From: a virus
Taxonomy: Duplodnaviria; Caudoviricetes
Direction: 5' to 3' (one strand)
Virus record (IMG/VR): IMGVR_UViG_3300028048_000075
Location: 1 to 64,000 of that record
DNA: 64,000 nucleotides
Below, piece by piece: positions 8,371-60,524 of this stretch. Numbering within the stretch: the first letter of the stretch is position 1; every line of letters starts with the position of its first letter. The position numbers were made by a program, and so were the translations under genes. The notes under the pieces are model-generated. The model saw only the letters and a list, made by a program, of their open reading frames with translations. It was not told the DNA's origin and did not search any database.

Positions 8371-9033
8371 ACCGAGTTGCGAACTAGCTACTTGAGCCAT
8401 AATTTGTGTAGCTACGTTACAAGCAGTTGTGAATGATTTTGGTTTATCGATTTTTGTACCGGAAATAACTGTACCATTTTGCAGCATATCGTCCATATTG
8501 ATAAGACAACAATTGTACAATTTCATTGAAGCGTAATCCATATCGTGTATATGAATGATTCCTGCTTCATGAGCTGCAATTAATTCTTTAGGGAATAAAC
8601 GTTCCCTAGCATACCATTTAGAAACTTCTCCTGCCATATAATCTCTCTGAGTTGGCAGAATTGTTGGGTTTTTATTAGCATTCTCCTGTTGAATTTCTTC
8701 ATTATTACAATTGAGAATAGAACCGATTTTGTCAAGAAATGTCGAACTCTCTCTATCCAACTGATGTTGATATCTATACACGATATAGTTCTTAGCAAGT
8801 TTGTGTGCTCCCAAAGAAGCAATACCTTCTTCAACCATATCCTGTATTTCTTCAACAGTATGAGTTCTACTAGCTGAATTAATAACTTCAGTAATATTGC
8901 TAGCAATCATTTCAATTTGACCGTCAGTAATCTGATCTTTAACAGATACTGACCCATTTGCTCTTGTAATAGCAGAAACGATCTTTCCTTCGTCGTATTC
9001 TACTTCAACACCGTTTCTTTTAATGATATTCAT
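8371..9033 (-). CDS. nrdD: Anaerobic ribonucleoside-triphosphate reductase, exon 1 (ATP cone)
   Basis: Start MNIIKRNG at 9033 with AAAGGAG RBS; ATP cone, ENANK, IHIHDMDY, YNCCLI, QVASSQ. Confidence 0.95.
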
Positions 9034-9265: not shown

Positions 9266-9466
9266 TCATTCTTTTTTCTTTTTAAGATAAATGATTATTC
9301 TGCATATGATATACACAAGAACAGCACAGATTGTAGCCCAGAGAATTACATCACGCTTAAAGCTACTAATTGTGTTCAAAACATTCAATGTTGCAAGTAC
9401 AGAAATTATGCTACTAACAACAGCCACAATCACATAATCGAGATATTTTATTATGAGATTTTTCAT
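9266..9466 (-). CDS. Small two-TM membrane protein (66 aa)
   Basis: GGAGG RBS, two hydrophobic segments, basic C-terminus. Confidence 0.65.
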   Translation of the reverse strand: MKNLIIKYLDYVIVAVVSSIISVLATLNVLNTISSFKRDVILWATICAVLVYIICRIIIYLKKKKE

Positions 9467-20493: not shown

Positions 20494-20525
20494 AGAGAGA
20501 TGGTGTGGGCATCACACCATCTCTT
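20494..20525 (-). terminator. Intrinsic terminator
   Basis: Minus strand AGAGATGGTGTG-atgcc-CACACCATCTCT followed by a T-tract. Confidence 0.75.
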
Positions 20526-20569
20526 GATAAGGAGAATAATTCTGAGAATTTTTACAAAATCTAGAACCT

Positions 20570-20692
20570 CGGCACTAAGAGGAGTTGAACCTACATCCTA
20601 CAAATGTTGTTACATAGACTAATGACGATCTCAAGATCTTCATGGAATCTATAAACACTCATTTGTCGTGCTCCATGCTACACTATAGTGCC
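20570..20692 (-). ncRNA. tRNA-like RNA with greatly extended anticodon arm (123 nt)
   Basis: Acceptor GGCACTA/TAGTGCC+G, D-arm GTGT-AGCATGGA-GCAC, T-loop TTCAACT. The anticodon arm is replaced by a ~70-nt irregular hairpin. Confidence 0.7.
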
Positions 20693-35022: not shown

Positions 35023-37428
35023 ATGTCTGAAGCTAAAGCTGTCATTTATGATGATGATAATATTAAAACTTTGGATTCTATTAGTGCTATACGATTACGT
35101 CCAGCAATGTATGTTGATGGAATTGGAGAGTCTGGTTTATATAAGATCGATTGCGAAGCTGTTCAAAACATTTTTGATGAATATTTGGTTGGAAGATGTA
35201 CATCTTGTAACGTTGAATATAACTCATCTACAGGATATATGAGAGTTGAAGATGATGGCGCTGGAATACCTATTGGTAAAATAGTCGATATTTTCACTAA
35301 AGCTCATACTGGTGGAAAGTTTGATAGAGAAGCATATGAGATAAGTTCAGGCCAGAATGGTGTTGGCAGTAAGGCGATAAATGCTCTTAGTAAAAGTCTT
35401 AGAGTTGAAGTTTGGAGAACAGAATATGTCGATAGGAGTGATAATAAAGTTCTTCCTAAGCATGCTGTTTTACAATTTGAAAAAGGTCGTCTTAAAGATG
35501 AATTCTACGAAGATGTTCCAAATTCCACAAAACATGGTACGCTTCTTGAATATTATTCTGATGATGAAATAATGAAAACTAACGTTAGAAACGTTAGAAG
35601 ATTTGCAGATTATTTGAATATGAATTCTTATTTGCTTCCAGGAATTCATATTTCATATACCGTCGATGGTAAAGAAAATGTTTTCTATCATGAAGGTGGT
35701 ATATCGGAATTATTCACAAATCGTTTTATAAAAGAAAAACATGTCAAAACTATGTTCGACCATATAGAAGTTCATGGAAATGAACGAATGTTTAGTTTTG
35801 ATATAGTATTTTCATATAATCCTATAAATACTGGAGATTCAAATATTGTATCTGCTGTAAATGGAAATAACACTCCATTACATGGAGTACATGTTTCTTC
35901 ATTTAGAGCTGGTGCAGCATTAGCACTTACAGATTATTTGAAAGAAAACAGTGATTTGATACCGAAATCTTTGAAAAACGTCAATATTTCCGGAACTATT
36001 GTTGGTGACAATATAGTTGCTGTTGTTTCTGTAAAGCACAGAGAACCATTGTATAGTGGTCAAACTAAAGAAGCATTTAAATCTGATGATGTTCAAGAAC
36101 CAATTAAGCAAACTACACGTAAAGTATTTGCGAAATGGTTGAGAGATAATCCTCAGGGCGCTAAGAAATTAGTTAGCATGATTATTGATTATGCTAAGTA
36201 TGAAGAAGAGAGAAAGAAACTTAAGAAAAATCTTATTGAATCTAAGGTAGCTAAAAGTGCTTTTGCTGCTAATGGTGTAGATCCTACGAAATATACTACT
36301 TGTAGAAGTAATAATCCTGAAGAAAGAGAACTCTTTATAGTAGAAGGAGACTCTGCTGGTGGTAACGTAGTACTTGCACAAGATCGTGAATTCCAAGCAC
36401 TTTATAAACTTACTGGTAAGATTCTTAACGTTATTAAATCAAACACAAGTAACTTGAGTAAAGTTATTATGGAATTGGTGAAAATTCTTGGTATGGGATT
36501 ACCTACTAATGGAAATCCTCCTAATTATAAGAATTTACAATACCATAAAATAATCATATTGACTGATGCTGATGATGATGGTGCACACATCGCTACACTT
36601 CTATTGGCATTCTTTTATAGATTCTATCCAAAACTTATTGAGGATGGAAATGTATTTATTGCTAATCCTCCGATTAAGAAACTCACAATGTCTAATGGAA
36701 AATACTTCTATATTCATACTGAAGCAGATTACAGTAGACTTATGAGAGAATTCATTTCTGAATCATTTGAGTTAATCAGTGCTAAGAATGGATACGTCAT
36801 GTCAAAAGGTTTCTTTGAGGAATACATTTATCACATTCAGGGATATGATAACCTTATTGAAAACCATGCACATGCATTAGCGATCGACAATGATCTTCTT
36901 GAGCATATTATAATTAATATCAATATTCTCACTCAGTGTAGTGATAATAGAGAAGATAAGTTTAACAAAGCTTTTTATAAGAACACAGGGTTCTATGTAC
37001 GTAAAATGGTTGGTCAACCTTATTACACATTTGATAAAGGAACTTATCATGCTAACGTACGTATAGATAAGAATTTTATAGATCATCATTTTTATGAGAT
37101 TGCTGACAAGCTTAATGAAATCATGTATTACGGTTTATCTTTAAGGGGAAAACGCTCCGGAAAAGTTTACCGTGGTACAATATATTCTCTCATGAAAGTT
37201 ATGAATGGAATACTTGGACCTAAAGTCGATATCAAGCGATTTAAAGGTCTTGGTGAAATGAGTTGTAGAGATCTTACAGAAACTACGATTAATCCTACAA
37301 AGAGATTGCTTACTCAAGTGAGAATGTCTGATGCAGAAAAAGCCGACAGAGCTATGCAAATCTTCATGAACGACACTTACATAAAGTATAAGCGATTATT
37401 CTATGCTGGAAGGATCGATTTTGACTAA
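35023..37428 (+). CDS. gyrB: Type IIA topoisomerase (gyrase-like) B subunit
   Basis: IRLRPAMYV, EDDGAGIP, HTGGKF, GVGSKAINALS, VEGDSAGG, TDADDDGAHI, RFKGLGEM; start moved to MSEAK. Confidence 0.93.
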   Translation: MSEAKAVIYDDDNIKTLDSISAIRLRPAMYVDGIGESGLYKIDCEAVQNIFDEYLVGRCTSCNVEYNSSTGYMRVEDDGAGIPIGKIVDIFTKAHTGGKFDREAYEISSGQNGVGSKAINALSKSLRVEVWRTEYVDRSDNKVLPKHAVLQFEKGRLKDEFYEDVPNSTKHGTLLEYYSDDEIMKTNVRNVRRFADYLNMNSYLLPGIHISYTVDGKENVFYHEGGISELFTNRFIKEKHVKTMFDHIEVHGNERMFSFDIVFSYNPINTGDSNIVSAVNGNNTPLHGVHVSSFRAGAALALTDYLKENSDLIPKSLKNVNISGTIVGDNIVAVVSVKHREPLYSGQTKEAFKSDDVQEPIKQTTRKVFAKWLRDNPQGAKKLVSMIIDYAKYEEERKKLKKNLIESKVAKSAFAANGVDPTKYTTCRSNNPEERELFIVEGDSAGGNVVLAQDREFQALYKLTGKILNVIKSNTSNLSKVIMELVKILGMGLPTNGNPPNYKNLQYHKIIILTDADDDGAHIATLLLAFFYRFYPKLIEDGNVFIANPPIKKLTMSNGKYFYIHTEADYSRLMREFISESFELISAKNGYVMSKGFFEEYIYHIQGYDNLIENHAHALAIDNDLLEHIIININILTQCSDNREDKFNKAFYKNTGFYVRKMVGQPYYTFDKGTYHANVRIDKNFIDHHFYEIADKLNEIMYYGLSLRGKRSGKVYRGTIYSLMKVMNGILGPKVDIKRFKGLGEMSCRDLTETTINPTKRLLTQVRMSDAEKADRAMQIFMNDTYIKYKRLFYAGRIDFD

Positions 37429-37453
37429 ACCCAAATTTGTGAGAAATTATTGT

Positions 37454-37465
37454 AACATATAAATA
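37454..37465 (+). promoter_or_regulatory. Late-type AACA-N6-TA motif heading the RNA island
   Basis: AACATATAAATA inside the loop of the hairpin after gyrB. Confidence 0.45.
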
Positions 37466-37909
37466 TAATTTCTCACAAAGGGTTCGTTTTTGTACACCAG
37501 ATGTTCGAAGGGTTTTACTTTAGAGCATTTTGTTAAGAACATTTGGTCATTTTCGATTTTACAACTCTTTTTGAATTTTTGTAGAGTTTAATTCAGGATT
37601 CCGGAATAGACATCTATTACCCTTTGCATGGTAGGCGGATGCGTCGGCTGAGTCTCGAGACCGTAGGTTGATGGTCGGGATCCTGTTAAAATTAGCACAT
37701 ATCCGGTAATCGAGCAATTATCGAGTGTGCGGGGGTTTGGAACTTGCTCCTCTAGACCTGACAGCGGGGCGTCGACACAATTATCTAGTCGATGCTCCGC
37801 TATTTATTTTTTAAGCCTATCCACTTTCATGGTTTATGTTTTACCGGAAGTGGAGATTTTATAACTAGATTTTCTCCGTCATCTAGTCAAAACTATAGAT
37901 TTTTTTTTC

Positions 37910-38009
37910 GTCGGTTTGGTTTAGTGGCAGAACGCCTTGTATACTTGAATAGTTACTACACTCCTGTTTCAAGTTTGAGGAAACATATGTTCGATTCATA
38001 TAACTGACA
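37910..38009 (+). ncRNA. tRNA-like RNA with extended anticodon arm (100 nt)
   Basis: Acceptor GTCGGTT/AACTGAC+A, D-arm GTTT-AGTGGCA-GAAC, T-arm ATATG-TTCGATT-CATAT. A 36-nt hairpin insert replaces the 7-nt anticodon loop. Confidence 0.75.
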
Positions 38010-38203
38010 AAGTGAGCCCAAAATATAAAAAAGAGATTCGAGTCCATCCAATAAAACGATCTCCTGCTGAAGACAGCACAATTTTGGGTTTCACGTTTTG
38101 TAAACTTTTTGAAAGGTTGTTTACATTATCATTCGAATGGACTGGATATCTGTCCAGTCCATTTATTTTTTAAAATACAAAGTATATAATAATATATTTG
38201 TAA

Positions 38204-38276
38204 GGGATATTAGCTCAGTAGGTAGAGCAACGGACTGTTAATCCGTGTGTCGATGGTTCGATCCCATCATATCCCG
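38204..38276 (+). tRNA. tRNA-Asn (GTT)
   Basis: Canonical cloverleaf, anticodon arm ACGGA-CTGTTAA-TCCGT; no encoded CCA. Confidence 0.95.
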
Positions 38277-38279
38277 AGA

Positions 38280-38451
38280 CCGTATTGCGGAGTTGGCATA
38301 TACCAAGTGGATTGGAATTTTGTGCACTAGAAAAATTCTTATGTTTAATATCAGGTAATACTAGGTAATTCGTGCTGATAACTAAACGTAAAATAAAATC
38401 CCGCCAATGGCGATGAATACGGAACCCCGGATCGAAACTTTGGTGCGATAA
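38280..38451 (+). ncRNA. Multi-branched structured RNA between tRNAs
   Basis: Stems CCGTATT/AATACGG, TTGG/CCAA, GGATT/AATCC, GAATTTT/AAAATTC, TTATGTTTA/TAAACGTAA, TATCAG/CTGATA, CGCC/GGCG. Confidence 0.45.
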
Positions 38452-38499
38452 CGAATGACAGGGCCCTTTAGTCATTCGAAGTCAGTTTCGATTATTTTT

Positions 38500-38572
38500 G
38501 GACTTTTAGCTCAGACGGTAGAGCAACGCCCTTTTAAGGCGTGGGTCGCGGGTTCAAATCCCGCAAAGTTCA
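38500..38572 (+). tRNA. tRNA-Lys (TTT)
   Basis: Canonical cloverleaf, ACGCC-CTTTTAA-GGCGT; no encoded CCA. Confidence 0.95.
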
Positions 38573-38640
38573 TTGACCACGATAGAGATAGTGTAGAGTT
38601 TAAAACTTTTCCGAACCATTATCTTAGTAGTGGTCTTTAT

Positions 38641-38713
38641 TCGGATGTCGACAAGTGGTAAGTCAGTGGTTCTTGGTGCCACTATTCCGTAGGTTCGAAT
38701 CCTACCATCCGAT
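38641..38713 (+). tRNA. tRNA-Gln (TTG), with C33
   Basis: TCGGATG/CATCCGA acceptor, GTGGT-TCTTGGT-GCCAC anticodon arm, GTAGG-TTCGAAT-CCTAC T-arm. Confidence 0.85.
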
Positions 38714-38785
38714 ATTTGTACTAATGTGGATTCACATTGCTTTCCGGCTACATTTTGGTACAACCATGAAATTTTCCTCTTTTGG

Positions 38786-38820
38786 GTACACAGGAGTTTT
38801 CTCCTGTGTATCTTTTTTTC
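38786..38820 (+). terminator. Intrinsic terminator closing the RNA island
   Basis: tacacaggag-tttt-ctcctgtgta followed by a T-tract. Confidence 0.75.
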
Positions 38821-38866
38821 GTTCACAATTTTTGACATTTGAATATAACTGAAGAAGGAAAACAAT

Positions 38867-39526
38867 ATGAATAAAAAGAAAAGCTTATTCACTATTGTTA
38901 CATGTAACATGAAACCAAGACAAATGGGAAAAGAACTTAGAAAAATATTTGCACAAAGGTCTCATGAGTCAGATCTTTCATTCATGCAAAAGAATTCTAA
39001 AGAACACAAAAATTTAAGAGGGAATCAATATATTCTCCAAATAGATAATGGACGTAGTGTAGAGAGTTATTTCTTTACAGTATATAGTAGTCAGAATGGT
39101 TTCTATTTAATGGACAATAAGGAACTTAAAAAATTTCATACTGAACAGAATTGTCTTAAATATAAATTAGCAAAAACTTATCTTAGAAACCATAAATCAT
39201 CAGAATCGATACGTTATACATGTATCAAATCTAATGAACGATTGGTTTCTGGTGATATTTTTGATGTGCTAAATAACGGATATACTTATGGCAAGAGGGT
39301 AAATATAATGGCCAATACTACAGAAACTCTTAAAGAAAAACCATATAATAGGATTATCCAATTGTATGATACACTTAAACAATCTAGAGAAGTTGGAGTA
39401 TATGCCAGTTCTTTAGGAGCATTTGGTGAAGAAAATCCACATATAATTGGTGGATATATACTAAATGAGAAAAAAGAAGAATTAGACCCAAGTGAGGATA
39501 ATGACGATGGAACCAGCGAAGATTAG
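38867..39526 (+). CDS. Hypothetical late protein (219 aa)
   Basis: AAGGA RBS; GACA-N6-TA at 38834-38845. Confidence 0.7.
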   Translation: MNKKKSLFTIVTCNMKPRQMGKELRKIFAQRSHESDLSFMQKNSKEHKNLRGNQYILQIDNGRSVESYFFTVYSSQNGFYLMDNKELKKFHTEQNCLKYKLAKTYLRNHKSSESIRYTCIKSNERLVSGDIFDVLNNGYTYGKRVNIMANTTETLKEKPYNRIIQLYDTLKQSREVGVYASSLGAFGEENPHIIGGYILNEKKEELDPSEDNDDGTSED

Positions 39527-56412: not shown

Positions 56413-58320
56413 ATGGGTGATGCGAGTCCTGAACGTCAGGCGTATTCCGAAGTTGGAACCGAGGGATACAAGGGACGATTTGTTGCAAATATTTCAAATA
56501 TCAGATTGTTTAAAAGCAATCCATACATTATGAATCTCAGTGAATCTGAGAAAGAAACACTTAATGCCAAACTTCTTACTCCTTATCAAGGTGAAATGTT
56601 CTATGACGATGATTATAACATTTATGTAGTCAAAGTCGGAAAAGATCCTATTACTGGAGTAACCACTTATACTTATATTTCTAAGACCAAAGATACAAAT
56701 TCTAAGTTAAATTACTATGAATCTAAAGGCGTTCTTAATCAGCTTATTAGCGCTTATAACAATGGTCAGGTTTATAAGTTCTACTACAATGTGGGAACCA
56801 AAACGATGTATCCTAATTCATCTCTGGTATTCCCATCAAATTACAATTCTTATACTGTTAGAAAACAGGAATTGAATGATGAAGCGAAGTATGTGTATCT
56901 GGCAGGAAATATTGTTGATGGTAACCTGATGGATGTTCATATTGCTATGAAAACCGTTATCGATTCTGTTAATAACACTTCTTATACCCGTATGGGAGCA
57001 GCTAAGATATTCGATAATGCTAGCCCTGATTCCCAATGGGATATCATACAGAATGGTCAATTCTATGTGGTAGACTTCTTCGATGTTAATGGAGAACTTA
57101 TCGATACTAAGCTTTTCCAAGCAGTTCAGGCTGTAACTACTTCTGTACAGACACCATCAGCAACTGTAGAAAGACTTGGTATTACGGTATTCAAGAACGG
57201 AATCGAAGCAAATGTTTCTAATGGTGTTTACGGTATTTATGCTGGAGAAGACTTGTCTAAAACTACAAGTTTTGCAATTGTAGCATACTATTCTGATGGT
57301 ACAAACAAGCTTATTACCGATAAACTTGATACAGGATATCTTTCTCGTGATGGTTGGGATGTAAATACTAGTGGTGCAGCAGTTGGAGACCAATTCCCTG
57401 TAACATTCACTTATTATCCTAATATCGATGAAAATGGTGTTCCTATTGGTCAGAAAATTCCAGAAACCATCATTTTCCAGGTAATGGAAAACACATATAC
57501 TAACCTTTATAAGGTTATTCCTGTTATGTGGTCTGATAATGCATCTGATCTTAACGTCGTTAATGGCTCTGCAGCAGTTTACAAACTCAAGGTTTATGCT
57601 ATGAGTCAGGATGGATTGCTAACCAATGTAACAAGAATGTTCTATAACACTAAAAAGAAGGTCGATGGCGTAGATTTGGTCGATTTCGAAGATTGTCCAG
57701 TTACGTACGATCCTTATCAGCAGTGTTGTATCTTTACATTCACTTCAAATCTTGCTGGTCAGAGAACAACATTCGAATTCACCCTTAGATCAAATGGTCA
57801 GGAAAAGAATCTTAGATTTGCTGCTGACTTTGGTGCTAATGATGCTGATTCTCAGTACATCTATGTATCTGCAAATGGTTCTGATGGAACTGATTATGGA
57901 TATGGTACAGATGGTCTCCTCTCTTCATTGGCTTCTACATATGGAACAAAAGAAGGAACCATATTCAACAAGATCACATACAAGAAACTTGCTTCTGAAC
58001 TCTTTATGGAGATGTTTAATAACACTACAAATGTTCGTGAAGTATACAAGAGAAGAATCAATGGTGTCGATGTATATCCTACAAAAATGCAAATCTATGC
58101 AGTTAAAGATGCTACTATTACTCCTCTTACAGCACTTACACAGATTCCAAATGCAGTAAATACTGTAACAGCATATCCATATAAAGAATCTGCAGTTAAT
58201 GCTATTCTTCAGAATGGTGTTTCTAATGATTTCATGCTGGTGAAGTTCATAACTGAACTCAATGGTGATCAGAACCTGATCAACTTCGATGTATTCAGAC
58301 TTAAAGTTCTTAATCAGTAA
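56413..58320 (+). CDS. Probable virion structural protein (635 aa)
   Basis: Beta-rich with an Ig-like AYYSDGT..IT motif; same operon. Confidence 0.55.
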   Translation: MGDASPERQAYSEVGTEGYKGRFVANISNIRLFKSNPYIMNLSESEKETLNAKLLTPYQGEMFYDDDYNIYVVKVGKDPITGVTTYTYISKTKDTNSKLNYYESKGVLNQLISAYNNGQVYKFYYNVGTKTMYPNSSLVFPSNYNSYTVRKQELNDEAKYVYLAGNIVDGNLMDVHIAMKTVIDSVNNTSYTRMGAAKIFDNASPDSQWDIIQNGQFYVVDFFDVNGELIDTKLFQAVQAVTTSVQTPSATVERLGITVFKNGIEANVSNGVYGIYAGEDLSKTTSFAIVAYYSDGTNKLITDKLDTGYLSRDGWDVNTSGAAVGDQFPVTFTYYPNIDENGVPIGQKIPETIIFQVMENTYTNLYKVIPVMWSDNASDLNVVNGSAAVYKLKVYAMSQDGLLTNVTRMFYNTKKKVDGVDLVDFEDCPVTYDPYQQCCIFTFTSNLAGQRTTFEFTLRSNGQEKNLRFAADFGANDADSQYIYVSANGSDGTDYGYGTDGLLSSLASTYGTKEGTIFNKITYKKLASELFMEMFNNTTNVREVYKRRINGVDVYPTKMQIYAVKDATITPLTALTQIPNAVNTVTAYPYKESAVNAILQNGVSNDFMLVKFITELNGDQNLINFDVFRLKVLNQ

Positions 58321-58337
58321 ACTGTGAGGGTTGGCTT

Positions 58338-60524
58338 ATGTCTTCAGAATTGCAGTTCGAATCTGTAATCGATAGGACTCAAGCGTCTAAAAATCCTGTA
58401 AACTATTATGATAGGACTGTTGTATTTGAGTTCAATACAAATGAGGTAAAGCCTATTGCTGTAACACTCGATTATTTGTATGCTAGAACCGATCACTTTC
58501 CTATCTATAGTATACAGAATTATGATAAAGCTATCGATAACAGAGTTTCTCCACCAGTAACAATGGCATATCCTACGTACATTACATCCGTCGATGTGCC
58601 AAAGAATCAAGGACACAATGTCTTTATGTTCCTCGATACTATACGTGAATTGATTTTCAAATATGGATTGAAGAACGAATTTTATAAGAACAAATATGGA
58701 AAATGGATAGATGTAAGTGCTATTCGTCCACATTTTAGCGTAAAACGATATGACGATAACATATTCAGTAGATTTTATACTGGATTGATCGATGATCGTT
58801 TTATGGACACTTCTATTTACACAAAGGTTTGTGATTCACCTACTTTTGAATGTATCAATCCTAACGATTATTTTGTGACTATGTGTCAAATTAAAGACGT
58901 CAATCGTATACCTGAAGCTATTTATATAGTGAAAGATCTTTACGATAAAAGTGGTTACACATATGACATCGGTAAGGGTGATGGAACCTTTGAATATAAA
59001 GATTGTGAAATTGAAGTTTTCACTAATGGTGAAACAGATCCTGTAGGTTCATTGAGATCTACAGTTTATCCAAGATTCACATATAAACTTGCTAACGCTG
59101 ATACAAGAGAAGTTGCTCATGGGTCATTTATAGATAACAACAGTCATCTATTTAATGATCTTCTTTTGACATTTACCGATTCTGAAGGTAATAGTTATGA
59201 GAACTTGGATAACTTGTTTATAACTGTCAATGGAATGGTTGTTGGATATAAACCTGGACCATTACCAAATCAGATATATCTTCCAGACGTAATTAAGTAT
59301 GCTTCAATGCAGATTAAAGGTGTTAAAGAAGATACAACTCTTGAATCAAAACTCGTTATCGAGAAGAATGGACTTGGTCAAAACGTATTAAATTATGATT
59401 TGGATTCAGAGTCTGCAGGTTACTGTTATGATTTCGATATTCAAATTAAACGTTGGAAAGGTGTAAACATTTCTTCTATAATAGAACCATTGGATACAGG
59501 AAAGATTTTCAAAACCGAAGATACTGATCCTAATAAGTCTTATTGGTTGACAAGAAAACTTGTTTTTAACAGAAGAATTGATAAAGATAAAACCATTCTT
59601 CTTTGTGGAAACACAATTGTCGATAAAGATTCTTGGTATGTAGATGAGAATGGCGCAATTATTCTTAAGAATATTGAAGCTGAATTCGATTATATTTACT
59701 CAGAAGTTTATAGAAACGTTCAGCAGTATCTCGAAAGTATTGTTGGACATTCTATTTCTGGTGCTCCAGATATTAAGGATTTTCTTAAAGACAATATGGA
59801 TAGTGCAGAATCTATCGATAGAGCATATGAAGCATATCATGCTGCTCTTGAAGAATGGAAGAATACAAATGGATCAGATACATATCACTATTACGCTAAA
59901 TCGCCATTTGCGGTTACTGTTGAGCAATTTAAGTATAGACAGTATGGTGTAATTGTTTTTGAATCTGCAGATGAAGAGAGCTATGATATACAGGCTCTAG
60001 AAAATCATAGGGATATAATTCTTAATAGACCACTTAGAAATAAGTTTATCAATAGAAATTGGACTCCTGATGATACAGTAGTTATGAATGGTGTAGTGCA
60101 CAGATTCGTAAATGAATACGAAGATGTGTTTATAGCCCCTGATGTGTGGTATAGACACGGTGTTTCAGACATTTTTGACGGTACAAATGCGTATAAACTC
60201 GCTATTGTTCGACATGATCGTAAATCTGACGCATATCACAGGCTTAATTATACAGAATTGCTTAAAGGACCGTTGGAAGGTGTAATTTATTACATTCGTG
60301 ATGATGAAAGAGATACATATCATCCATTCAGTGATCTTAAAGCATTCGATAAACACTACGCTGTTGTTGATGTAATTCCTGGTGAAACAATCGATAAAAA
60401 GAAACGATACTTCACTAAGGTCGGTGACGAATATGTTGAGATCCCCAGTACACTCAACGCATTTGAAGCTGGCGAAACTTACTACGTTTGTTACTTCAAT
60501 AAAGATTATTTCATCAAGAAATAA
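58338..60524 (+). CDS. Probable virion structural protein (728 aa)
   Basis: FITVNGMVV and VVMNGVV motifs; C-terminal YY/YF repeats; terminator at 60532-60553. Confidence 0.55.
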   Translation: MSSELQFESVIDRTQASKNPVNYYDRTVVFEFNTNEVKPIAVTLDYLYARTDHFPIYSIQNYDKAIDNRVSPPVTMAYPTYITSVDVPKNQGHNVFMFLDTIRELIFKYGLKNEFYKNKYGKWIDVSAIRPHFSVKRYDDNIFSRFYTGLIDDRFMDTSIYTKVCDSPTFECINPNDYFVTMCQIKDVNRIPEAIYIVKDLYDKSGYTYDIGKGDGTFEYKDCEIEVFTNGETDPVGSLRSTVYPRFTYKLANADTREVAHGSFIDNNSHLFNDLLLTFTDSEGNSYENLDNLFITVNGMVVGYKPGPLPNQIYLPDVIKYASMQIKGVKEDTTLESKLVIEKNGLGQNVLNYDLDSESAGYCYDFDIQIKRWKGVNISSIIEPLDTGKIFKTEDTDPNKSYWLTRKLVFNRRIDKDKTILLCGNTIVDKDSWYVDENGAIILKNIEAEFDYIYSEVYRNVQQYLESIVGHSISGAPDIKDFLKDNMDSAESIDRAYEAYHAALEEWKNTNGSDTYHYYAKSPFAVTVEQFKYRQYGVIVFESADEESYDIQALENHRDIILNRPLRNKFINRNWTPDDTVVMNGVVHRFVNEYEDVFIAPDVWYRHGVSDIFDGTNAYKLAIVRHDRKSDAYHRLNYTELLKGPLEGVIYYIRDDERDTYHPFSDLKAFDKHYAVVDVIPGETIDKKKRYFTKVGDEYVEIPSTLNAFEAGETYYVCYFNKDYFIKK

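What the first reader, a model, noticed from the sequence alone, without database searches (positions are those of the whole stretch)
37910..38009. tRNA-like RNA #2: independent example of the elongated-anticodon architecture
Seen: GTCGGTT-TG-GTTT AGTGGCA GAAC-G-CCTTG-[tat ACTTGAATAG ttactacactc CTGTTTCAAGT t]-TGAGG-AAAC-ATATG TTCGATT CATAT-AACTGAC-A. It has a perfect T-arm, a canonical D-loop and a 7-bp acceptor with G4.U69, but 36 nt instead of 7 in the anticodon loop, folding into a further ~10-bp helix. Its sequence is unrelated to RNA #1, yet the design is the same. Two such loci 17 kb apart argue for a selected RNA class rather than decay. Together they are the best candidate here for an undescribed system; novelty was not verified by search.
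Basis: partly seen in the sequence, partly recalled or inferred. Interest (0 to 1): 0.85.

Follow-up and report, generated by a model that had tools for sequence, protein, structure and literature searches.

The report
Non-decoding tRNA look-alike in rumen jumbo phage
A large phage from the cow rumen carries a gene shaped exactly like a tRNA except that the codon-reading loop is replaced by a closed hairpin, and relatives keep such look-alikes with quite different hairpins, so it looks like a selected tRNA mimic whose job is still unknown.

Summary
Window 37910-38008(+) is a tRNA-shaped gene with a 7-bp acceptor, D arm, T arm and all tertiary-contact nucleotides in register. A descriptor requiring these gave 0 hits in 10 shuffles of 812 kb. 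Where the 7-nt anticodon loop belongs there are 36 nt.

It matches no Rfam family and is not a tmRNA. It is not a credible intron either:
- No single excision leaves a 7-nt loop with U33.
- Contigs from two RNA libraries carry it unspliced.
- Near-complete relatives encode no RNA ligase.

The host genome is a rumen jumbo phage of the AR9/phiR1-37 type. Relatives carry such RNAs at the same two sites, but the arm varies freely. Two strains with about 95% identical flanks have a 56-nt rod and an 8-bp GAAA-capped hairpin. At RNA#1's site relatives have a normal tRNA-Asn or a 7-bp/tetraloop arm. Five of 14 strictly tRNA-shaped genes are non-decoding.

The shared design is therefore a closed anticodon end, not elongation. 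RNA#2's own extra helix is thermodynamically unremarkable.

Best reading: a non-decoding tRNA mimic, present in RNA libraries, that acts through its tRNA body. The function is unproven. Earlier notes of this scan hold the same search words in at least 120 other genomes; the eight shown describe sealed-anticodon mimics. I found no paper describing them. Closest known: T4 species 1 RNA and YrlA.

The parts
37910..38009 (+). RNA#2, a tRNA-shaped non-decoding RNA. Acceptor 37910-16/38002-08; D arm 37919-33; anticodon stem 37935-39/37976-80; 36-nt insert 37940-75; T arm 37985-38001; discriminator 38009. No CCA is encoded.
   Evidence: descriptor, 0 hits in shuffles; ARAGORN calls it only in intron mode; contigs from RNA libraries cover it unspliced; one ends at 38008
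37940..37975 (+). Insert replacing the 7-nt anticodon loop. A 7-bp perfect inverted repeat plus 3 pairs across a bulge, with an 11-nt apical loop.
   Evidence: z -1.0 to -1.5, so weak; no antisense target of 10 nt or more in the 129.6-kb record
20571..20692 (-). RNA#1, a second tRNA-shaped RNA. It has a perfect 7-bp acceptor, a 4-bp D arm, a T arm with one mismatch, and a 67-nt rod of about 25 bp capped by a 4-nt loop in place of the anticodon arm.
   Evidence: MFE is the cloverleaf, z -2.86; rod z -3.78
37820..37854 (+). Conserved hairpin 55 nt upstream of RNA#2. The core (ATGGT, U-rich loop, ACCG) is fixed and the outer stem changes sequence but keeps pairing in relatives. Possibly part of the same transcription or processing unit.
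   Evidence: (one match in the window, 0 expected)
38135..38164 (+). Intrinsic terminator closing the unit that contains RNA#2.
   Evidence: the contig from RNA library X4 ends at 38166
20496..20524 (-). Intrinsic terminator 47 nt downstream of RNA#1.
38204..38713 (+). Three ordinary tRNA genes, Asn(GTT), Lys(TTT) and Gln(TTG), given as context. None encodes CCA.

Best explanation
RNA#2 is a non-decoding tRNA mimic of an AR9/phiR1-37-type jumbo phage from the rumen, and it is present in RNA libraries. It is probably transcribed on the + strand with the gyrB-proximal non-coding island and ends before the terminator at 38135-38164. Because it keeps a 7-bp acceptor stacked on a 5-bp T arm and a complete D/T elbow, host RNase P and 3'-end and CCA enzymes are expected to trim it to a stable L-shaped RNA of about 100 nt (inferred). 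Its anticodon end is closed into a helix, so it cannot read a codon or fit the ribosomal decoding site. The working part is the tRNA body, not the rod. The mechanism I think most likely, by inference only, is competition for a protein that recognises the acceptor and elbow of tRNA. Candidates are a host tRNA-targeting defence or toxin enzyme, or a tRNA-processing enzyme, to which the mimic would offer an uncleavable, non-translatable look-alike. Shown: the structure, its recurrence in relatives, its presence unspliced in RNA libraries, and the free exchange of the arm. Inferred: processing, stability and the protein target.
For: Every tRNA tertiary nucleotide is in register, and the descriptor gives 0 hits in 10 shuffles. 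Five of 14 strictly tRNA-shaped genes in five related genomes have a closed or missing anticodon arm on an otherwise perfect body, two of them with GAAA caps. G003 has a 7-bp/TACA version at RNA#1's site. L001 and L046 have about 95% identical flanks and the same scaffold, but the arm is a 56-nt rod in one and an 8-bp GAAA hairpin in the other. Analogous RNAs lie at the syntenic site in L001, L002, L046 and L051/L052. Contigs from RNA libraries of two studies cover RNA#2 unspliced; one ends at 38008, the last acceptor base, and the other ends at the terminator. No difference within the 99 nt of RNA#2 was among the 40 listed for three variant strains (8 more were not shown), while the flanks differ. 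Terminators follow both RNAs on their own strand. A cultured relative, phiR1-37, has an unannotated GUAA-sealed tRNA look-alike with encoded CCA 13 nt after its tRNA-Asn. Precedents: YrlA's tRNA-like domain is cut by RNase P and receives CCA (PMC4201824), and it was proposed as a competitive inhibitor of an anticodon nuclease (PMC7790460).
Against: No function is shown and no partner protein is conserved next to these RNAs. PTH2, Pth, Ro60, a CCA enzyme and RNA ligases are absent from the near-complete relatives. Scaffolds are not conserved in sequence between phages, so covariation within one orthologous family could not be measured. RNA#2's fold has no thermodynamic support. The RNA data are assembled contigs, so they show neither ends nor amounts, and DNA carry-over is possible. 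Anticodon nucleases that read the anticodon loop itself would not be competed by a mimic that lacks it. My descriptor demands an intact body, so the 5-of-14 count is biased towards intact bodies.
Confidence: 0.4

Rival explanations
1. Processing handle. The tRNA-shaped unit exists only so that RNase P and the 3' tRNA-end enzymes cut the long transcript at defined places. This would free or define the ends of the neighbouring structured RNAs (the upstream hairpin and the GC-rich element; the three-way junction at 38010-38100) and of the gyrB message. The excised body itself would have no role.
For: RNA#2 is flanked within 2 nt by a strongly structured element (38010-38100, z -4.1) and preceded by a conserved hairpin. 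A contig from an RNA library stops exactly at 38008, with no cover of 38012-38164 in that run. The arm sequence is irrelevant in relatives, as expected if only the RNase P determinants matter. T4 matures its species 1 and 2 RNAs from the tRNA cluster precursor (own knowledge; layout).
Against: An ordinary tRNA would serve equally well as a handle. This does not explain why the anticodon loop is repeatedly sealed with tetraloops or rods. RNA#1 has no comparable structured neighbour. A contig end is only a weak hint.
Confidence: 0.2
2. Decaying tRNA gene. This is a former tRNA inactivated by an insertion in the anticodon loop, in a genome where tRNA genes turn over quickly, and it is caught before the rest has degraded.
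For: At RNA#1's site relative G001 has a normal tRNA-Asn. tRNA content differs widely between relatives. No sequence homologue of RNA#2 exists in relatives or in 50,697 phage records. RNA#2's extra helix is within chance.
Against: The body has no defect at any stem or tertiary position. The same pattern, an intact body with a closed arm, recurs at seven or more loci, with neat GNRA caps and a 25-bp rod at z -3.8. RNA#2 shows no listed difference in three strains whose flanks vary. RNA#1 and G001:203444 are reciprocal best scaffolds, though only just above background (71% against about 65-68%), and their stem differences are compensatory at 1-72, 12-23, 51-63 and 52-62. That homology is tentative.
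Confidence: 0.2
3. tRNA-scaffolded small RNA. The rod or its apical loop is the active part, for example an antisense or protein-binding hairpin, and the tRNA body is only a chassis giving stability and precise ends.
For: The arm is exchanged wholesale between near-identical strains, as expected for a fast-evolving effector module. RNA#2's 11-nt loop contains an anti-Shine-Dalgarno-like CUCC, as another first-stage note on this stretch points out.
Against: No complementary target of 10 nt or more was found in the 129.6-kb record, and only chance-level 12-14-nt matches in five genomes. Some members have no arm at all, or only a tetraloop-capped 3-8-bp stem, which leaves nothing to display.
Confidence: 0.1
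4. Intron-containing tRNA. A 27-29-nt intervening sequence is removed to give a decoding tRNA. ARAGORN's intron mode proposes tRNA-Leu(CAA).
Against: That call needs an intron at 31/32, a U.U pair closing the stem and 2 nt between the D and anticodon stems. A 4-nt variable loop is also wrong for bacterial tRNA-Leu (own knowledge). With the 5-bp stem kept, no contiguous excision leaves a 7-nt loop with U33 (read), and the same holds for RNA#1. There is no bulge-helix-bulge and no Rfam intron or ribozyme hit. Contigs from two RNA libraries carry the unspliced form and no joint. No Rnl1, Rnl2 or RtcB is encoded in relatives that are 94% and 99% complete. Relatives have tetraloop-sealed arms with no anticodon anywhere.
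Confidence: 0.04

Closest known systems
Phage T4 species 1 RNA (rnaC), a stable RNA of the T4 tRNA cluster
   Same: A phage-encoded stable RNA sitting with the tRNA genes. It has an acceptor-like terminal stem and a perfect T arm (CCGGG/UUCGAAU/CCCGG), with long hairpins where the other arms would be. Its function is still unknown (own knowledge).
   Different: There is no sequence similarity. T4 rnaC has two U.U mismatches in its terminal stem, no canonical D arm and two long hairpins. RNA#2 is a complete canonical tRNA body altered only in the anticodon loop.
YrlA, the bacterial and phage Y RNA with a tRNA-like domain (Rfam Y RNA-like; PMC4201824)
   Same: A tRNA body (acceptor, D and T arms) joined to a long helix at the position of the anticodon arm. 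It is a substrate of RNase P and the CCA enzyme in M. smegmatis. It has been proposed as a competitive inhibitor of an anticodon nuclease (PMC7790460).
   Different: The topology is permuted: YrlA's ends lie at the far end of the rod and its acceptor is looped. It binds Ro60/Rsr through a conserved motif. No Rfam hit was found here and there is no TROVE/Ro60 gene in five related phage records.
Canonical tRNA (Rfam RF00005) and phage tRNA clusters
   Same: The acceptor, D arm, T arm, variable loop and all tertiary nucleotides are the same. It lies 195 nt upstream of three real tRNAs and, like them, lacks an encoded CCA.
   Different: It has 36 nt instead of a 7-nt anticodon loop. It is not reported by RF00005 even at E<=10, nor by default ARAGORN.
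Sealed-anticodon tRNA mimics noted earlier by this scan in other phages (AI notes, unpublished)
   Same: An intact tRNA body with the anticodon loop closed by a tetraloop or helix, in large phages. One note records that relatives keep the body but not the cap.
   Different: Those notes often place the mimic beside a phage PTH2 gene. No PTH2 or Pth gene exists in this clade. Here the arm can be very long (29-95 nt) and is swapped between strains.
Engineered tRNA scaffold for RNA expression, and tRNA-linked RNAs such as mascRNA or gammaherpesvirus tRNA-miRNA units (own knowledge)
   Same: An RNA hairpin placed in or next to a tRNA body, so that cellular tRNA enzymes define its ends and stabilise it.
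   Different: Those are engineered or eukaryotic and viral cases. No active cargo is evident here.

Membership tests
Canonical tRNA (RF00005) | 7-bp acceptor, D arm with A14/G18G19, and T arm with G53-C61 and a T54-A58 loop | tested here: met
Canonical tRNA (RF00005) | 5-bp anticodon stem closing a 7-nt loop with U33 and an anticodon | tested here: not met
   The loop is 36 nt. No excision restores U33.
Canonical tRNA (RF00005) | Score at or above the Rfam gathering threshold (29 bits), or a default ARAGORN call | tested here: not met
   No match even at E<=10 on a 1.3-kb search. ARAGORN in default mode is silent.
Intron-containing tRNA | Intron at 37/38 or in a bulge-helix-bulge, or a group I core, with a canonical tRNA product | tested here: not met
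   ARAGORN places it at 31/32 with a U.U closing pair. No Rfam intron hit.
Intron-containing tRNA | Spliced form present in RNA | tested here: inconclusive
   Only unspliced contigs appear in two RNA libraries and no joint is seen. Contigs drop rare forms.
tmRNA | tRNA-like domain with G3.U70, plus a tag reading frame and pseudoknots | tested here: not met
   The ARAGORN tmRNA search finds nothing. No Rfam hit. Pair 3-70 is C-G.
YrlA / Y RNA | Ends in the Ro60-binding stem, and a Ro60 (TROVE) gene nearby | tested here: not met
   The ends are at the acceptor. There is no TROVE match in five records and no Rfam hit.
T4 species 1 RNA (rnaC) | Sequence or structure homology to T4 rnaC | tested here: not met
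   A blastn search of RNA#2 against 50,697 phage records gives only chance hits. The folds differ. It shares only the kind: a tRNA-cluster stable RNA with a T arm.
Sealed-anticodon tRNA mimic (class noted by this scan) | Intact tRNA body with a closed, non-decoding anticodon end, recurring in relatives | tested here: met
Sealed-anticodon tRNA mimic (class noted by this scan) | Adjacency to a phage peptidyl-tRNA hydrolase (PTH2) gene | tested here: not met
   No PTH2 or Pth in G000-G004.
Any of the above | Discrete processed RNA with CCA, modification or aminoacylation | not testable with these tools
   Only assembled contigs of RNA libraries were available.

The most novel reading that the evidence does not exclude
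The anticodon arm is an exchangeable cassette on a fixed tRNA chassis. Phage strains swap or regrow the rod (56-nt rod against a GAAA-capped hairpin in 95%-identical backgrounds) because the rod is under an arms race. It might act as bait for a host enzyme that measures or cuts the anticodon arm or double-stranded RNA. That would make these RNAs a naturally diversifying family of RNA decoys against tRNA-directed immunity.
Probability: 0.1. Interest if true: 0.85.

Novelty: new variant of a known kind. Interest (0 to 1): 0.6.

Why it matters
tRNA-targeting nucleases and toxins are a major arm of bacterial anti-phage defence. The known phage counter-measures are spare tRNAs and RNA repair. A phage RNA that keeps the whole tRNA body but is deliberately made unable to decode would be a different strategy, namely mimicry. 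It would also extend the 50-year-old puzzle of T4's species 1 RNA to a broad set of jumbo phages. The class is missed by standard tRNA finders and by Rfam, so it goes unannotated even in a cultured phage (phiR1-37). That phage offers a direct experimental system.

Tried and rejected
Searches and look-ups that found nothing:
- Rfam at gathering and at E<=10 reported only the three tRNAs.
- ARAGORN in default and tmRNA modes reported nothing at the site. With an unbounded intron range on the whole window it was also silent. With a bounded range it forces tRNA-Leu(CAA), which I reject for the reasons given under the intron rival.
- An exact 30-nt search for the 3' half in IMG/VR gave 0 hits.
- blastn of RNA#2 against 50,697 phage records gave only chance hits at E>=1.
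- blastn of both islands against four related genomes matched only the real tRNAs.
- Antisense-target searches for the rods and loops gave chance-level 12-14-mers only.
- Protein partners: the flanking genes are GyrB, a split RNAP beta piece, an SbcD-like nuclease, an NrdG-like radical SAM protein, a Dda/RecD-like helicase and proteins of unknown function. None is tRNA-related.
- Family searches for a CCA-adding enzyme, Rnl1, Rnl2-type ligase, RtcB, TROVE/Ro60, PTH2 and Pth were all negative in G000, G001 and G003; the last three were also negative in G002 and G004. The Rnl1 search also found nothing in the control genomes, so it is uninformative.
- Literature searches found no description of phage tRNA bodies with sealed or elongated anticodon arms.

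Other items rejected or left unused:
- The 71-codon ORF at 37792-38007 overlapping RNA#2 is rejected as coding. Two strains carry a 1-nt insertion at 37806 inside it, and there is no ribosome-binding site before its ATG.
- Descriptor hits at 58224-58374 and 94686-94923 are chance; the first spans a gene boundary.
- MAFFT mis-registered the upstream hairpin, so its covariation was read by eye only.
- Missing cover of 38012-38164 in RNA library X12 is not used as evidence.

Full report
**What is there**

- The acceptor is 7 bp, with a G.U at 4-69.
- U8 is present.
- The D arm has a 4-bp stem and a 7-nt loop carrying A14 and G18 G19.
- G26 is followed by a 5-bp anticodon stem, and the variable loop is 4 nt and ends in C48.
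- The T arm is a perfect 5 bp with G53-C61 and a TTCGATT loop.
- The discriminator is A.

All nucleotides that make the tertiary contacts of a tRNA are in register: U8-A14, G15:C48, G18/G19 with the T loop, G26:A44, and T54-A58. The one departure is that 36 nt (37940-37975) stand where 7 belong.

Default ARAGORN and Rfam see only the three ordinary tRNAs 195-800 nt downstream. RF00005 does not report the site even at E<=10.

I wrote a descriptor that demands the acceptor, a D arm with A14 and GG, and a T arm with G53-C61 and a T-loop. It recovers RNA#2 and gives no hit in ten shuffles of five related phage genomes, 812 kb in all. The tRNA shape is therefore far beyond chance.

The extra helix inside the insert is weaker evidence. 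It is a perfect 7-bp inverted repeat plus three pairs across a bulge. The arm's energy is ordinary for its composition (z -0.98, 27 of 200 shuffles fold as well). The whole molecule's MFE is not the cloverleaf.

**RNA#1**

The companion lies on the minus strand at 20692-20571. It has a perfect acceptor, a 4-bp D arm and a T arm with one mismatch. In place of the anticodon arm it has a 67-nt rod of about 25 bp ending in a 4-nt loop. Here the MFE is the cloverleaf (z -2.86) and the rod alone has z -3.78. The two RNAs share no more sequence than any two tRNAs do. Each is followed on its own strand by a strong intrinsic terminator.

**Where it comes from**

The window is the first 64 kb of a 129.6-kb IMG/VR virus record that is 46% complete. 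The neighbours are GyrB and a piece of a split multisubunit RNA polymerase beta subunit. The nearest cultured homologues of that polymerase piece are Bacillus phage Goe21 (Takahashivirus, the AR9 group), Yersinia phage phiR1-37 and Staphylococcus jumbo phages.

Near-identical DNA occurs in bovine-gut and other animal-gut runs from 15 studies.

**Relatives**

Two conserved proteins led to related contigs. Two of these are near-complete genomes: G001 (264 kb, 94% complete) and G003 (276 kb, 99% complete).

*RNA#2's site, between gyrB and the polymerase piece.* Each relative that keeps the non-coding island has a tRNA-shaped RNA with a long or odd middle:
- L001 = G001:243480-243589 is 110 nt, and its MFE is a cloverleaf with a 56-nt arm (z -3.1).
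- L002 is about 125 nt, with a five-way junction.
- L051 and L052 are 101 nt.

L046 is a close strain of L001. Its flanks and scaffold are about 95% identical to L001's, yet the 56-nt arm is replaced by an unrelated 8-bp stem capped by GAAA.

*RNA#1's site, between the 140-aa and 454-aa genes.* G001 has a normal tRNA-Asn there. G003 has a 74-nt tRNA shape whose anticodon arm is a 7-bp stem with a 4-nt loop.

*Genome-wide.* The strict descriptor finds 14 tRNA-shaped genes in the five genomes. Five of them cannot decode:
- RNA#2.
- RNA#1.
- A 60-nt form with no arm at all (G001:203444-203503).
- Two GAAA-capped forms in G003.

G001 also has a 147-nt form inside its tRNA cluster.

The cultured phage phiR1-37 has an unannotated look-alike 13 nt after its tRNA-Asn. 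Its arm is a 5-bp stem capped by GUAA, and its 3' end carries an encoded CCA.

None of these RNAs is alignable to RNA#2 by sequence.

**What this says**

The recurring design is an intact tRNA body with a closed anticodon end. The length and sequence of the closing helix are free. Elongation is one variant, not the defining feature.

Neat GNRA caps and a 25-bp rod are not what random decay produces. However, my descriptor selects for intact bodies, so the 5-of-14 ratio is biased.

RNA#1 and G001:203444 are each other's best scaffold match, though only just above background (71% against about 65-68%). Their stem differences are compensatory at 1-72, 12-23, 51-63 and 52-62. Their homology is tentative.

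**RNA evidence**

I laid two RNA libraries and two DNA runs on 37400-38900.
- Both RNA libraries yield contigs that carry RNA#2 unspliced, and no joint across the insert is seen.
- One contig (X12) ends at 38008, the last base of the acceptor stem.
- The other (X4) runs on to 38166, the end of the predicted terminator.
- Three variant strains show about 48 substitutions and several indels over the 1.5 kb. None of the 40 listed differences falls within the 99 nt of RNA#2; 8 more were not shown.

These are contigs. They show presence in RNA libraries, not ends, strand or abundance, and DNA carry-over cannot be excluded.

**Not an intron**

ARAGORN calls tRNA-Leu(CAA) with a 27-nt intron when introns are allowed. 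That solution is not credible, for these reasons:
- It needs an intron at 31/32, a U.U closing pair and two nucleotides between the D and anticodon stems.
- It gives a class I Leu tRNA, which is not a bacterial form (own knowledge).
- With the 5-bp stem kept, the second loop position after any single excision is A or C, never U. The same is true for RNA#1.
- There is no bulge-helix-bulge, and the insert is far too short for a group I intron.
- No Rfam intron or ribozyme matches.
- The near-complete relatives encode no Rnl2-type ligase or RtcB. The Rnl1 search also found nothing in the control genomes, so it is uninformative.

**Mechanism**

The 12-bp acceptor/T stack and the D/T elbow are what RNase P, 3'-end enzymes and the CCA enzyme recognise (established knowledge). 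YrlA shows that a tRNA-like body with a rod is processed this way (PMC4201824). I therefore expect a stable, CCA-tailed RNA of about 100 nt. The phage encodes no CCA enzyme, and its true tRNAs also lack an encoded CCA, so host enzymes must serve.

With the anticodon end closed, the RNA cannot decode. My best guess is that it competes for a tRNA-binding protein, as was proposed for YrlA and an anticodon nuclease (PMC7790460).

A pure processing-handle role and slow decay remain serious rivals. A cargo role for the rod is unlikely, for two reasons. I found no targets. Some members also have no rod.

No tRNA-related protein gene is linked to these RNAs. PTH2, which earlier notes of this scan found next to similar mimics, is absent here, as is Ro60.

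**Novelty**

I found no paper describing free-standing phage tRNA bodies with sealed or elongated anticodon arms. A 2023 catalogue of viral structured RNAs mentions only tRNA or tRNA-like candidates in general terms (PMC10690425).

The closest known things are T4 species 1 RNA and YrlA. Earlier unchecked AI notes of this scan hold the same search words in at least 120 other genomes, and the eight shown describe sealed-anticodon mimics. So the class recurs, and this locus is not unique.

What this locus adds:
- the very long rods;
- the swap of the arm between near-identical strains;
- presence in rumen RNA libraries;
- a cultured relative that carries one.

Noticed in passing
window 37820-37854 (+); L001 9160-9200; L046 3139-3180; L002 8925-8965; L051 about 1728-1752: A conserved hairpin lies 30-60 nt upstream of the tRNA-shaped RNA at the gyrB site. 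The core (ATGGT, U-rich loop, ACCG) is fixed while the outer stem changes sequence and keeps pairing. The motif occurs once in the window, with 0 expected by chance.
   Followed up: partly
window 38010-38100 (+): A three-way junction with z -4.1 starts 2 nt after RNA#2's discriminator. It contains a T-loop-like UUCGAGUCC. RNA library X12 has no contig over it, while X4 does.
   Followed up: partly
G001:203444-203503 (+) (in locus L019): A 60-nt tRNA shape with acceptor, D arm and T arm but only 11 nt where the anticodon arm and variable loop belong. Rfam tRNA scores it 46.7 bits. It is the best scaffold match to RNA#1.
   Followed up: partly
G001:217673-217819 (+) (in locus L019): A 147-nt RNA inside the tRNA cluster. 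It has a perfect acceptor and T arm, no clear D stem, and a rod of about 100 nt.
   Followed up: partly
G003:233470-233543, 243277-243351, 243469-243536, 248143-248224 (+): Four more odd tRNA shapes occur in a 99%-complete relative. One has a 7-bp stem with a TACA loop; one has a 6-nt anticodon loop (ARAGORN '???'); two have GAAA-capped arms.
   Followed up: partly
Yersinia phage phiR1-37, AJ972879.2 71624-71698 (locus L056 325-399): An unannotated tRNA look-alike lies 13 nt after the annotated tRNA-Asn. Its anticodon arm is a 5-bp stem capped by GUAA and it has an encoded CCA end. Rfam scores it 27.1 bits, below the threshold.
   Followed up: partly
window about 20528-20537 (-); also L001 about 9393-9403, L002 about 8880-8890, G001 about 208135-208145: An anti-Shine-Dalgarno-like run (TTCTCCTTA or TTCCTCCTTA) recurs on the sense strand between tRNA(-like) genes and their terminators.
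   Followed up: no
window 37792-38007 (+): A 71-codon ORF overlaps RNA#2. Two natural strains carry a 1-nt insertion at 37806 inside it, so it is very unlikely to be a gene.
   Followed up: yes
window 37430-37610 versus 37610-37900: Strain differences cluster in the first 180 nt after gyrB. The GC-rich structured stretch at 37610-37780 shows none of the listed differences in three strains.
   Followed up: no
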